Shown here one piece after another: positions 6,001-9,000 of a stretch of DNA of 10,931 bases (positions within the stretch are counted from its first letter, which is position 1; each line of letters begins with the position of its first letter). The stretch lies in the IMG/VR virus record IMGVR_UViG_2534681938_000031. One strand, given 5' to 3'. The stretch comes from a virus. Its lineage: Duplodnaviria > Heunggongvirae > Uroviricota > Caudoviricetes. Made by a program: the position numbers.

Positions 6001-9000
6001 TGGCTAAACATCAAAAAGGCGATGTTGCCAGCGTATCCGGCACGATGCAGGTAAGCCAGTGGACCGGACAGAACGGAGAAACGCGGCAGGGCTGGCAGGT
6101 TATCGCAGACAGCGTAATCAGTGCCCGCGCGGCACGTCCAGGCGGGAACAGACGCAAAACCACAGGCACACAGGGTAATCAGCCACCAGCGGGAGGCGAT
6201 GACCCTTACGGTGATGATATTTCGTTCTGAGGGGGTGACGATGGTACATGACCGCATAGCGGAGGAACTGGAGGCGAAAGGCTTTTACCGGAGGGCGGCG
6301 GCGCGATGGGGTGAAGTCATGCAGCTGGTGGAGACAGACAAGGAACGGCATCACATCACGATGCGACGGCTGGAATGTTCAAGGAAGGCACAGAGGGCAC
6401 CGGAGCCGCCGGATAATTTCGGAGACCTGAAAAAGGCAGTCGATCGCACTTATGCCGAAATGGGTATAGATGGTGCTGGTGATGAAATATGGCGCAATTA
6501 CCAGGACAGCTAATCAAACAGCCGGAGAAATCCGGCTTTTTTTGCACCAGTTGAAACGGTATGGCGCATTACCGGGTTTTCGTCACGGTCAGGCATAGTT
6601 ACTATCTGAAACAAACAGACACAACAGAGGAAAAAACAATGCCGATGAAATTTGATGAGATATTAAAACAGCGTGATAAATACCATGCTGACAACATGGA
6701 GACGATGAGCATCAATGATTACCGCGCATTCCTGGAGACGGGCGCACTGATTGAAAAGGATCAGCATGGTTTTGTGAGATGTGCTCTATCCGGTGAAATG
6801 CTGGCGGTAAATCCTGAACAGATAGATGCATTGATAGAATTTCTGAAAGAGATCAGAGACTGAGCCAGCACACAGCACACATAGCCGGAGCAATCCGGCT
6901 TTTTTGCGCCCAAAAAAAGCCCGATAAGGTCAGAGGGTTCTTATCGGGCTTTTGCATATGAGGTTTTTGGATGCACTGGCGTTCGTGATCGGGATAATCA
7001 TTTCATAATTTGCAACATAACTCAATATCATTGCATAAAATGCAATTCTGATTATAATCAGGACTGGATAAACATCCAGTTATGATTTTTTTAGTCGAAG
7101 AGGAATTTCTTACTATGGCTGAAGAGAAAAAAAGCGGTGTTTCGGTGTACATAAGCCCCGAAATCGTGGAGGTGCTCAAGCAGCGCCACAAAAAAACTAT
7201 GAAGCTGGCGTTGCGGCTGGACTGGATCCGCTGATGACGCCGGAGCCGTCGATAGGTTCACTTGTACGCTCTTATTTACTTGCGGCGCTTGGGATGCATA
7301 AAAATTATGGGGGTGAATAATGGCAGGCAAAGCAACGGCACTTAACACTAACCAGCTTTTCATGTACCTGAATCGCGGGGATATTGCGGATTTTAAATTC
7401 AGCCCTCTGTTTACCACGCTGTTTTTCCCGAACGTGGCGACATTCAGCACGCAAAACATCATGCTGGATACCCTGGACATTGAAGAAGTCACCATGTCGG
7501 CGTTTTGTTCGCCTATGGTGGGTAGCCAGGTTCAGCGCGATAAAGGGTACGAAACCAGCACAATCAAACCTGGCTACATGAAGCCAAAGCACGAAATCGA
7601 TCCAACGAAAACCATCATGCGCATGGCTGGAGAAGATCCGGCACAGCTTAACGACCCTACCTATCGCCGTATGCGCCTGATTACTGGCAACATGCGCCGC
7701 CAGATAAACGCCATTAAGGCACGCGTGGAATGGCTGGCGGTGAATGCGGTAACGACCGGAAAAAACATCATTGAGGGCGAAGGCATAGAACGCTATGAAA
7801 TCGACTGGAAAATACCGGAAAACTGCATCATAGAGCAGGCCAAGGGTAAAAAATGGTCCGAGCAGGATAAAGACATGCACGACCCAATCTATGACATCGA
7901 GCTTTATGCTGATCAGGCTGGTTGCCCCGCAAACGTCATGATTATGGGCGCTGAGGTATGGCGCACATTACGCAGCTTTAAAAAATTCCGTGAGCTGTAC
8001 GATCTTTCCCGTGGTTCAGAATCCGCCGCCGAACTGGCCTGTAAAAACCTGGGCGAAGTGGTGAGCTTTAAAGGCTATCTTGGTGATCTGGCCCTTATCG
8101 TCTATTCCGGCAAATACACTGACAGCGATGGTACCGAAAAATATTTCCTTGAGCCTGATTTGCTGGTCCTGGGTAACACCAACAATAAAGGGCTGGTGGC
8201 CTATGGTGCGATAATGGATCAGGAAGCGGTAAGAACGGGCGCAACACAAAACATGTTTTACCCGAAAAACTGGATTGAGGACGGCGATCCGGCGATTGAG
8301 TACGTGCAGACACACAGTGCACCGCAGCCGGTACCGGCAGATATTCGCAAATTTGTTACCGTCAAAATTGGTTAACGGGGGGATTCTATGGACACTCCAT
8401 ACATTGAGTTATTTGCAGGCAGTCAGCAGGTATCCACGACGTTGGTACATTTTGCCGCTGATGCTGGCGTTATTCAGGAATTTACCCCGCTGATGCTGGC
8501 AGACAATGGCGAGTTTAAGCCGTGGGATGGTCAGGAATCTGGCAAGGCTGTTTATCTGACCTCGTACCCTGTGGACACGTCAAAGCAGAAATCAGCACAG
8601 TGTTACAAGACGGGGATATTCAATATTGCCGCCGTTAACTGGCCTGAGAGCGTCGACACCGATGCGAAAAAATGCGCCGCCTTTGCGGGTTCCGGCGTAT
8701 CCGTTCAGCCGCTGGCCCGATAAGCAGGGGGAACGATGGCAACGAATGAAAGCATCATGACGCTACCGCTGGCGAGTAAATTTAAAGTCGAAGCGCGGGC
8801 AATGGCTGACAGAGGTTTATCAACCTATGAGGCCGTATATCAACTAAACAAACTGGAAGAGCAGGACAAGCCGTGCGCTGATGCGATTATGGCGCTTCAT
8901 GAGCATAAAGACTATCAGCCGCTGTTGCGTGCAATGGCAAACGTGCCTTGTATCGATGTTGGTACGGCTAAAAGCATCCTTAGCATGACCATAGAGCAGG

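What the first reader, a model, noticed from the sequence alone, without database searches (positions are those of the whole stretch)
7115..7320. Two tiny coupled ORFs (39 and 28 codons) between the late promoter and the capsid gene
The first ORF has the strongest RBS in the region; its stop overlaps the ATG of a second ORF (TGATG at 7232-7236), whose stop overlaps the capsid gene ATG (TAATG at 7318-7322). This could be two micro-proteins, a leader arrangement coupling capsid translation to upstream ribosome traffic, or one frameshifted ancestral gene of about 67 codons.
Basis: seen in the sequence. Interest (0 to 1): 0.35.

Follow-up and report, generated by a model that had tools for sequence, protein, structure and literature searches.

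The report
Frameshifted small gene before satellite capsid
The two tiny overlapping ORFs are the two halves of one conserved 68-codon gene of an E. coli O157:H7 phage-satellite island, split by the loss of a single A from a run of eight; this is an ordinary frameshift pseudogene that public annotation already flags.

Summary
The coordinates, codon counts and both stop/start overlaps (TGATG 7232-7236, TAATG 7318-7322) are correct. The pair is not an evolved arrangement. The window is an EcCICFT073-type phage-inducible chromosomal island (PICI) of E. coli O157:H7, between roxA and phoQ. RefSeq annotates window 7115-7320 as one "hypothetical protein, frameshifted".

Relatives carry one intact 68-codon gene. 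That holds for 315 of 319 complete E. coli genomes with this allele group and for 80 of 80 IMG/VR loci. The window has A7 (7190-7196) where they have A8. ORF1 is 27 native codons plus 12 out-of-frame codons. ORF2 is the native C-terminal 28 codons, starting at an internal Met codon.

The A7 allele is real. It occurs in nine independent assemblies, six of them clean at the other runs they cover. Four further homopolymer contractions in the window look like errors of one draft assembly.

The intact gene is under purifying selection (dN/dS 0.07-0.47). It always lies directly upstream of the satellite's lambda-E-like capsid gene, usually with the TAATG overlap. Its function is unknown (phrog_3255). 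A ribbon-helix-helix fold is suggested but not significant. The "strongest RBS" claim fails.

Low interest.

The parts
7115..7320 (+). Whole pseudogene: a 68-codon ancestral gene (family phrog_3255) that now reads in two frames.
   Evidence: RefSeq/PGAP annotates exactly this interval in strains F7386 and 149 as one CDS, 'hypothetical protein, frameshifted'. The intact protein matches phrog_3255 at E 2.5e-46.
7115..7234 (+). ORF1 (39 codons): native residues 1-27 followed by 12 out-of-frame residues (TMKLALRLDWIR), ending at TGA 7232-7234.
   Evidence: Translation and protein alignment to intact orthologues.
7190..7196 (+). A7 run, the site of the lesion. Intact alleles have A8 here (CAC AAA AAA AAC = His-Lys-Lys-Asn).
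   Evidence: DNA alignment A1, pairwise differences and run lengths in ten assemblies. All 38 A-tract alleles among the IMG/VR loci have A8.
7234..7320 (+). ORF2 (28 codons): native residues 41-68 of the ancestral protein, starting at the internal Met41 codon. The native frame is open from at least 7195.
   Evidence: Translations and alignment.
7309..7316 (+). Shine-Dalgarno sequence of the capsid gene (GGGGGTGA), embedded in the conserved C-terminal Gly-Gly-Glu codons of the small gene.
   Evidence: Anti-SD pairing of -9.7 kcal/mol. The junction sequences are conserved across lineages.
7320..8375 (+). Lambda-E-like major capsid gene (homologue of EcCICFT073 c1499). Its ATG overlaps the small gene's stop codon (TAATG).
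   Evidence: Pfam Phage_cap_E at E 5.5e-50. The capsid gene directly follows the small gene in all 80 IMG/VR loci, and 77 of them have the TAATG overlap. c1499 is named as the capsid gene in PMC6092414.
7100..7104 (+). Shine-Dalgarno sequence (GAGGA) of the small gene, 10 nt upstream of ATG 7115.
   Evidence: Invariant in seven lineages. Pairing energy is -6.0 kcal/mol. The in-frame upstream ATG 7082 is not the start, because other alleles have TAA in that frame.
7030..7058 (+). Putative promoter of the capsid module: palindrome ATTGCATAAAATGCAAT (7030-7046) containing a weak -35 TTGCAT, a 16-nt spacer, and a perfect -10 TATAAT (7053-7058).
   Evidence: Read. Strongly conserved across seven lineages, including ones whose coding sequence is saturated at synonymous sites. 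Function is not tested.
7062..7081 (+). Conserved leader hairpin GACTGGAT-AAAC-ATCCAGTT, followed by a T-rich stretch.
   Evidence: Terminator-like hit. The fold has z = -4.2. The hairpin is kept in 6 of 7 lineages but shows no compensatory changes.
6883..6953 (+). Two tandem intrinsic-terminator-like hairpins that close the upstream module: AGCCGGAGCAATCCGGCT+T6 at 6883-6905, and GCCCGATAAG..CTTATCGGGC+T4 at 6919-6953.
   Evidence: for the first; the second was read. The first hairpin recurs at 6520 and at 9155, so copies bracket the capsid module.

Best explanation
Window 7115-7320 is a single small protein-coding gene inactivated by a one-base contraction of a homopolymer (A8 to A7 at 7190-7196).

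The ancestral gene encodes a 68-residue protein and is the first gene of the capsid module of an EcCICFT073-type PICI. The module reads: small gene, lambda-E-like capsid, D-like decoration protein, Nu3/scaffold-like 137-aa protein. The island lies between roxA and phoQ in E. coli O157:H7.

After the deletion, ribosomes starting at ATG 7115 read 27 native codons. They then run out of frame for 12 codons and stop at a fortuitous TGA. The rest of the native frame survives as an apparent second ORF only because it contains an internal Met codon (Met41) that happens to overlap that TGA. The TAATG overlap with the capsid gene is the ancestral junction.

Shown here: the lesion, its position, colinearity of both fragments with intact orthologues, purifying selection on the intact frame, conserved synteny, and that the A7 allele is inherited in a subclade of O157:H7.

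Inferred, not shown: the truncated product lacks the second predicted helix and is non-functional. Capsid translation probably continues from its own strong SD. The consequence for the island is probably small, because deleting the capsid or decoration gene of EcCICFT073 gave no phenotype.

The function of the intact protein is unknown. My best guess, at about 0.3, is a small dimeric ribbon-helix-helix-like DNA-binding protein acting on the conserved palindromic promoter of the capsid module.
For: - Annotation: RefSeq marks the interval as one frameshifted CDS in F7386 and strain 149.
- Intact orthologues: one 207-nt gene in O157 strain 9000, IHE3034, 2013C-4187, a Nissle derivative and CFIAFB20180511.
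- Position of the lesion: alignment A1 puts the only indel in the A run. ORF1 residues 1-27 and ORF2 residues 1-28 are identical to the intact O157 protein. The frame from 7195 encodes native residues 28-68.
- Frequency: 4 of 319 complete genomes with this allele group have A7 and the rest have A8. None of the IHE3034-type genomes has A7. All 80 IMG/VR loci have an intact 68-aa ORF, all 38 A-tract alleles among them have A8, and the capsid gene directly follows in all 80.
- Selection: dN/dS is 0.07-0.47 in all 15 of 21 pairwise comparisons where it could be computed; dS was saturated in the other six.
- Synteny with an E-like capsid is kept in Salmonella and in helper-embedded-type islands. 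A distant homologue lies upstream of a capsid gene of another family.
- The allele is real: the 39-aa product is listed in 86 blocks of the assembly collection. A7 is present in L001 and L013-L020, and L001, L013, L014, L015, L018 and L020 have wild-type length at every other run they cover.
- Island identity: integrase, AlpA, AAA_25 helicase, SSB, PerC, Phage_cap_E, HDPD and Phage_Nu1.
- Literature: deletions of c1499 or c1500 gave no phenotype (PMC6092414).
Against: - Nothing contradicts the pseudogene reading.
- No expression data were available, so low-level production of either fragment, or of full-length protein by slippage on A7, is not excluded.
- The window's source assembly carries four other private homopolymer contractions. 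Taken alone, the window would not prove the A7 allele real.
- The functional guess is weak. There is no Pfam hit. RHH_1 reaches only E 0.15-0.2 and BrnA_antitoxin E 0.017. hhalign gives 7.8% probability. The monomer model has pLDDT 68 and no Foldseek match.
Confidence: 0.95

Rival explanations
1. Sequencing or assembly artefact: the strain really has A8 and an intact gene, and the A7 is a homopolymer under-call.
For: The window differs from strain F7386 by four further one-base homopolymer deletions and no substitutions, at 4357, 6631, 9981 and 10387. The one at 4357 splits the RepA-type helicase and is found in none of 459 matching complete genomes. All five run lengths together are found only in L016, a draft assembly (GCA_000249375.2). 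Other frameshifted versions of this protein exist in public databases.
Against: A7 is shared by nine independent assemblies. These include four complete genomes and several assemblies of public sequencing runs; six of the nine have wild-type length at every other run they cover. F7386 and strain 149 are identical over 16.9 kb, and F7386 differs from strain 9000 by only two SNPs and this indel. Sister genomes whose accession numbers fall in the same ranges have A8.
Confidence: 0.08
2. Two genuine, translationally coupled micro-proteins (39 and 28 aa) that evolved as such.
For: Both ORFs start with ATG, and the stop and start codons overlap (TGATG, TAATG). Gene callers have called the 39-aa product in many draft genomes.
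Against: The arrangement is confined to one allele of one clade, 4 of 319 complete genomes. ORF1's tail is out-of-frame sequence of the ancestral gene. ORF2 has almost no SD, -3.9 kcal/mol. Its start codon is not conserved: other alleles have A, C, V or L at position 41. Selection acts on the continuous 68-codon frame.
Confidence: 0.01
3. A leader or upstream-ORF device whose translation controls capsid gene translation.
For: The small gene's stop overlaps the capsid ATG in 77 of 80 loci. The capsid SD lies inside the small gene's last codons. The small gene follows a conserved promoter and leader hairpin.
Against: The protein sequence itself is conserved under purifying selection, which a mere leader would not need. 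The capsid gene has its own strong SD, -9.7 kcal/mol. The Salmonella island has a 5-nt gap rather than an overlap. In the distant homologue, two other genes lie between it and the capsid gene. Stop/start overlaps are generic in phage operons (established knowledge).
Confidence: 0.04
4. A programmed or phase-variable slippage site: the A run acts as a switch, and A7 alleles still make full-length protein by a -1 ribosomal shift or by transcriptional insertion of one A.
For: A -1 shift after the second AAA codon restores exactly the native sequence (...HKK|NYEAG...). The same A8-to-A7 product appears on three allelic backgrounds in draft assemblies. Runs of A are known sites of polymerase and tRNA-Lys slippage in E. 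coli (established knowledge, not tested here).
Against: The run is absent from most alleles, which have CAC CAG CAG AAC. The run in its reading frame (CAC AAA AAA ACT) is not a canonical X XXY YYZ heptamer. No Rfam element or conserved downstream structure was found. In complete genomes A7 is confined to one clade. A7 is short for efficient transcriptional slippage (established knowledge).
Confidence: 0.04

Closest known systems
Homopolymer-slippage frameshift pseudogene, as flagged 'frameshifted' by NCBI PGAP
   Same: There is a one-base contraction of a mononucleotide run inside a conserved CDS. The two fragments are colinear with intact orthologues in two frames. RefSeq already annotates the interval this way.
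   Different: Nothing essential differs. The only curiosity is that the new stop codon overlaps an internal Met codon, so the fragments mimic a coupled gene pair.
EcCICFT073 capsid module (c1499 capsid, c1500 decoration) of Gram-negative PICIs (Fillol-Salom et al. 2018, PMC6092414; 2019, PMC6739421)
   Same: The island type and gene order are the same. CFT073-lineage and Nissle-type genomes match the region at about 84% identity and have the intact small gene directly upstream of the capsid gene. The island has int, AlpA, a replication helicase and a Nu1-like gene.
   Different: The papers do not mention the small upstream gene: 'c1498' has no occurrence in either paper. They report no phenotype for the capsid or decoration deletions. 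In the window's clade the small gene is broken.
Ribbon-helix-helix (Arc/MetJ/CopG) small DNA-binding proteins
   Same: The size is similar (68 aa). The N-terminal segment GVSVYISP has a strand-like pattern, followed by two predicted helices at 15-34 and 47-58. The weak profile hits are in register: RHH_1 profile positions 2-19 align to residues 9-26. Being first gene after a palindromic promoter resembles autoregulators such as CopG or Arc (recalled from memory).
   Different: No match reaches significance. Helix A and the inter-helix loop are longer than in canonical RHH proteins. Dimerisation and DNA binding were not tested. It is therefore not filed as a member.
Programmed -1 frameshift sites such as dnaX A AAA AAG
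   Same: There is a run of A decoded by tRNA-Lys, and a -1 shift would restore the native protein.
   Different: The run is not a canonical heptamer in this reading frame. No stimulatory element was found. The run is not conserved among alleles, and the wild-type state is a single open frame.

Membership tests
Frameshifted pseudogene of a conserved gene | Orthologues carry one uninterrupted ORF across the interval. | tested here: met
   A 207-nt CDS is present in five other E. coli lineages. All 80 IMG/VR loci have an intact 68-aa ORF. 315 of 319 complete genomes have A8.
Frameshifted pseudogene of a conserved gene | Both fragments are colinear with the orthologue, in two frames, and a defined indel joins them. 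| tested here: met
   There is a single-base gap in the A run. ORF1 residues 1-27 and ORF2 residues 1-28 are identical to the intact O157 protein. The native frame is open from 7195.
Frameshifted pseudogene of a conserved gene | The intact frame is a real gene under purifying selection. | tested here: met
   dN/dS is 0.07-0.47 in all 15 of 21 pairs where it could be computed; dS was saturated in the other six. Synteny is conserved in at least four island types.
Frameshifted pseudogene of a conserved gene | The lesion is in the DNA of the organism, not only in one assembly. | tested here: met
   A7 is present in nine independent assemblies, six of which have wild-type length at every other homopolymer site they cover. 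Raw reads were not available.
phrog_3255 (unknown function) | Significant full-length match to the family profile. | tested here: met
   The intact O157 protein matches at E 2.5e-46 over residues 1-68. The distant member P0034 matches at E 4.7e-10.
EcCICFT073-type Gram-negative PICI | Integrase, AlpA regulator and replication (primase/helicase) gene in one direction, about 10-20 kb, integrated in the chromosome. | tested here: met
   Phage_integrase, Phage_AlpA (E 5.4e-17) and an AAA_25 helicase were found. All annotated island genes are on the + strand between roxA and phoQ, about 10.5 kb.
EcCICFT073-type Gram-negative PICI | Induction and packaging by a helper phage. | not testable with these tools
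   Shown experimentally only for EcCICFT073 itself (PMC6092414).
Ribbon-helix-helix superfamily | Significant sequence or profile similarity to RHH families. | tested here: not met
   RHH_1 reaches a best E of 0.15, 12.1 bits against a cut-off of 20.5. BrnA_antitoxin reaches E 0.017. hhalign gives 7.8% probability. The PDB profile search found no RHH protein.
Ribbon-helix-helix superfamily | Strand-helix-helix topology forming an intertwined dimer. | tested here: inconclusive
   The monomer model shows coil at 1-14 and helices at 15-34 and 47-58, with pLDDT 68. A dimer could not be modelled. Foldseek found no match.
Programmed ribosomal frameshift site | A slippery heptamer in the correct frame, a stimulatory element, and conservation of the two-frame arrangement. 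| tested here: not met
   The frame reads CAC AAA AAA ACT. No Rfam element was found. The two-frame arrangement occurs in only 4 of 319 complete genomes, and the run is absent from other alleles.
Translationally coupled gene pair (small gene and capsid gene) | The stop/start overlap is conserved among relatives. | tested here: met
   TAATG in 77 of 80 IMG/VR loci. TGATG in L011 and L012. The exception is a 5-nt gap in Salmonella L009. Functional coupling was not tested.

The most novel reading that the evidence does not exclude
The intact 68-residue protein could be a satellite-restricted, ribbon-helix-helix-like regulator that acts on the highly conserved palindromic promoter of the PICI capsid module. 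The A8 run in the O157/IHE3034 allele would then work as a slippage-prone on/off or dimmer switch. A7 alleles would still make a little full-length protein by a -1 ribosomal shift or transcriptional slippage, because a -1 shift restores the exact native sequence.
Probability: 0.05. Interest if true: 0.4.

Novelty: already known. Interest (0 to 1): 0.08.

Why it matters
It matters little. The finding is an annotation point: the two micro-ORFs should not be counted as genes or as a regulatory leader.

Two things have modest value. First, it draws attention to an uncharacterised, narrowly distributed small protein family (phrog_3255). The family has only 17 representatives among 1.84 billion clustered proteins. 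It is always associated with the capsid gene of enterobacterial phage satellites, a module whose role is itself unexplained, since capsid and decoration deletions in EcCICFT073 had no phenotype. Second, natural A7 strains of O157:H7 are ready-made knock-outs of that gene for anyone studying the module.

Tried and rejected
- Phage homologues: tblastn of the intact protein against 50,697 phage records found nothing at E <= 1e-3. The family appears to be satellite- or prophage-borne only.
- Remote homology: a profile search of 1.84 billion representatives found only 17 proteins. A PDB profile search found nothing meaningful. Pfam and NCBIfam gave no significant family.
- Structure: the AlphaFold2 monomer reached pLDDT 68. 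Foldseek against PDB and BFVD gave no hit below E 0.6.
It is treated as a lead only.
- Genome-contig scan with the family patterns: 345 pattern hits, none confirmed by tblastn.
- RNA element: no Rfam match near threshold in 6800-7400. A second leader hairpin that would sequester the small gene's SD is not conserved, so it was dropped.
- immI idea: I considered that the distant homologue P0034 sits in a P22 immI-like Arc/Mnt region. This was rejected, because the 315-aa neighbour is a major head protein (phrog_617), not an antirepressor.
- Literature: the search for 'c1498' returned only leukaemia cell-line papers. The PICI papers do not mention the small gene.
- Lineage marker: I checked whether the SNP at window 7884 marks the A7 lineage. 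It does not, since many A8 genomes share it.
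Full report
**1. The observation**

The sequence is as described. ATG 7115 opens a 39-codon ORF that ends at TGA 7232-7234. ATG 7234 opens a 28-codon ORF that ends at TAA 7318-7320. ATG 7320 opens a 351-codon gene that matches Pfam Phage_cap_E at E 5.5e-50. The overlaps TGATG (7232-7236) and TAATG (7318-7322) are both present.

One detail fails, the 'strongest RBS' claim. Computed pairing to the 16S rRNA 3' end is -6.0 kcal/mol for ORF1, whose GAGGA at 7100-7104 sits 10 nt from the ATG. The values are -9.7, -9.4 and -9.4 for the capsid, decoration and 137-aa genes. ORF2 has only -3.9.

**2. Where the window comes from**

The region is 100% identical to E. coli O157:H7 strains F7386, 147, 148 and 149, and 99.9% identical to many other O157 genomes. 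It is an island of about 10.5 kb between roxA and phoQ. The island carries:
- a tyrosine integrase, an AlpA-family regulator and an AAA_25/RepA helicase;
- SSB and a PerC-family regulator, then a lambda-E-like capsid, a lambda-D-like decoration protein, a 137-aa protein resembling the C-terminal part of a head protease/scaffold, and a Nu1-like small terminase.

This is the organisation of the Gram-negative phage-inducible chromosomal islands typified by EcCICFT073, whose capsid and decoration genes are c1499 and c1500 (PMC6092414). CFT073-lineage and Nissle-type genomes match the region at about 84% identity.

**3. What the two ORFs are**

RefSeq/PGAP annotates exactly window 7115-7320 in F7386 and in strain 149 as one CDS, 'hypothetical protein, frameshifted'. 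Other genomes carry a single 207-nt, 68-codon gene at this place. These are O157 strain 9000, IHE3034, 2013C-4187, the Nissle derivative SYNB1934 and CFIAFB20180511.

The DNA alignment shows one indel only. The window has A7 (7190-7196) where the closest alleles have A8, in ...CGC CAC AAA AAA AAC TAT.... At the protein level:
- ORF1 residues 1-27 are identical to the intact O157 protein.
- ORF1 residues 28-39 (TMKLALRLDWIR) are out-of-frame sequence.
- ORF2 is identical to native residues 41-68.
- The native frame is open from at least 7195 and encodes residues 28-68.

The TGATG 'coupling' is therefore an accident. It is the native ...CTG ATG... (Leu40-Met41) read in the shifted frame. Position 41 is A, C, V or L in other alleles. 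The in-frame upstream ATG 7082 is not the start, because other alleles have a TAA in that frame.

**4. Is the intact gene real?**

Yes.
- dN/dS over the 68-codon frame is 0.07-0.47 in all 15 of 21 pairwise comparisons where it could be computed, among seven lineages. In the other six pairs synonymous sites are saturated.
- The gene lies directly upstream of an E-like capsid gene in a Salmonella island (5-nt gap). It does the same in islands with an internal integrase, one of which is embedded among lambda-like late genes (TGATG overlap).
- In all 80 IMG/VR loci the ORF is 68 codons and the capsid gene follows directly. 77 of them have TAATG, and all 38 A-tract alleles have A8. That tool keeps the best 80 of 104 matches, so this sample is biased towards intact copies.
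- A distant member, P0034, lies two small genes upstream of a major head protein of a different family (phrog_617).
- The conserved C-terminal Gly-Gly-Glu codons double as the capsid gene's Shine-Dalgarno sequence, GGGGGTGA at 7309-7316.

**5. Real mutation or sequencing error?**

Both occur in this window. Relative to F7386, the window has four further one-base homopolymer deletions and no substitutions, at 4357, 6631, 9981 and 10387. The deletion at 4357 splits the 466-aa helicase into 139-aa and 327-aa ORFs, and it is found in none of 459 matching complete genomes. All five run lengths together occur only in L016, a contig of the draft assembly GCA_000249375.2, which is probably the window's source.

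The A7 at the small gene is different. It is present in L001 and in L013-L020, nine independent assemblies. Six of them (L001, L013, L014, L015, L018, L020) have wild-type length at every other run they cover. The 39-aa product is listed in 86 blocks of the assembly collection. F7386 and strain 149 are identical over 16.9 kb, and F7386 differs from strain 9000 only by two SNPs and this indel.

I conclude that A8-to-A7 is a genuine inherited allele of a subclade of O157:H7. It is rare among complete genomes, 4 of 319, and absent from IHE3034-type complete genomes. The other four contractions are most likely errors of one draft. The same frameshift product also appears on two other allelic backgrounds in draft assemblies. 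I cannot tell whether those are recurrent slippage or errors.

**6. Function of the intact protein**

The function is unknown.
- The protein matches phrog_3255 ('unknown function') at E 2.5e-46.
- It has no significant Pfam or NCBIfam family.
- It has no tblastn match in 50,697 phage records.
- Only 26 word-indexed homologues were found, and only 17 representatives among 1.84 billion proteins. All named homologues are from E. coli, Shigella or Salmonella.
- AlphaFold2 with a 12-sequence alignment gives pLDDT 68, an unstructured N-terminus and helices at 15-34 and 47-58. Foldseek finds nothing in the PDB or BFVD.

The pattern GVSVYISP-helix-loop-PS-helix resembles a ribbon-helix-helix protein. 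The only sub-threshold Pfam hits are RHH_1 (residues 9-26 on profile positions 2-19, E 0.15-0.2) and the RHH-fold BrnA antitoxin (E 0.017). This is a lead and not a membership.

The context fits a regulator, though it does not prove one. The gene follows two terminator-like hairpins (6883-6905 and 6919-6953). It also follows a promoter-like region, roughly 7003-7105, that is more conserved than the coding sequence across seven lineages. That region contains a palindrome, TTGC-AAAAATGCAA, over the -35, the sequence ATGATTATAATCA with a perfect -10, and a leader hairpin kept in 6 of 7 lineages without compensatory changes.

**7. Consequences of the frameshift (inferred)**

The 39-aa product keeps the strand-like segment and about half of helix 1, and it loses helix 2. 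It is presumably inactive. The 28-aa fragment could arise only by reinitiation at the overlapping ATG, which has a weak SD. Capsid translation should persist from its own SD.

Deleting c1499 or c1500 in EcCICFT073 changed neither transfer nor interference (PMC6092414). The capsid gene of Gram-negative PICIs is reported as dispensable for transfer (PMC10111431). Loss of the small gene is therefore likely to be tolerated, in keeping with its survival in a clade.

A -1 ribosomal shift, or the transcriptional insertion of one A on the A7 run, would regenerate the exact native protein. This is possible in principle. It is not supported by a canonical heptamer, by a stimulatory structure or by conservation of the run.

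**8. Verdict**

This is an ordinary homopolymer frameshift pseudogene that public annotation already flags, so interest is low. What remains open is the function of the small satellite-specific protein family and of the PICI capsid module it heads.

Noticed in passing
window 4351-4356 (A6; deletion placed at 4357), inside ORFs 3972-4391 and 4388-5371: The RepA/AAA_25 replication helicase (466 aa in other genomes) is split into 139-aa and 327-aa ORFs by a one-base contraction, A7 to A6. None of 459 matching complete E. coli genomes shares it. It occurs only in two draft or run assemblies (L016, L019), so it is probably a sequencing error of the source draft.
   Followed up: yes
window 6631, 9981 and 10387: Three more private one-base homopolymer contractions relative to F7386 (A7 to A6, T7 to T6, A6 to A5). 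The last one changes the reading frame of the final small gene, 93 aa in RefSeq against an 80-aa ORF at 10152-10394 here. All occur together only in L016 (GCA_000249375.2), the probable source assembly.
   Followed up: partly
window 9179-9254 and 10043-10118: A 76-nt inverted repeat, 91% complementary, flanks the Nu1-like 'terminase small subunit' gene (9355-9897). It could be packaging-site related or a sign of an invertible or duplicated segment. It is unexplained.
   Followed up: no
window 7003-7105: The promoter and leader region upstream of the small gene is more conserved than the coding sequence across seven lineages, including Salmonella. It contains a palindrome ATTGCATAAAATGCAAT over a weak -35, a perfect -10 TATAAT inside ATGATTATAATCA, and a hairpin GACTGGAT..ATCCAGT followed by a T-rich stretch. 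This suggests a regulated promoter, dependent on an activator or on antitermination. The factor is unknown.
   Followed up: partly
window 6520-6537, 6883-6900, 9155-9172 (degenerate copy near 10843): The same terminator hairpin, GCCGGAG(A/C)AATCCGGC followed by a T run, recurs at module boundaries and brackets the capsid module (7115-9149). It looks like a reused terminator cassette.
   Followed up: no
window 8736-9149: The 137-aa 'hypothetical protein' after the decoration gene matches the C-terminal end of head maturation protease/scaffold profiles (phrog_53 positions 495-567 of 583, E 4.7e-9; phrog_1999, E 1.7e-68). It may be a Nu3-like scaffold fragment kept by the satellite.
   Followed up: no
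L010 710-4296 (Logan ERR11525680 contig): A distant member of the small-protein family (P0034, 65 aa) sits upstream of two small genes, a 315-aa major head protein of a different family (phrog_617) and a protein with a P22-type tailspike N-terminal domain. This may be another kind of capsid-carrying satellite.
   Followed up: partly
window 1841-2785: There is a 314-codon open frame here, where RefSeq annotates only a partial 'Icd-like protein, missing C-terminus' pseudogene (L001 3040-3633, which is window 1839-2432). There was no Pfam hit.
   Followed up: no
database proteins P0008, P0019, P0026, P0032, P0033: Public databases hold several other frameshifted or doubly frameshifted versions of this 68-aa protein. 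One example is P0008, which shifts at the first A run (7127-7133) and returns to frame at the second. The two A runs of this gene are therefore recurrent sites of indels or of sequencing errors.
   Followed up: partly
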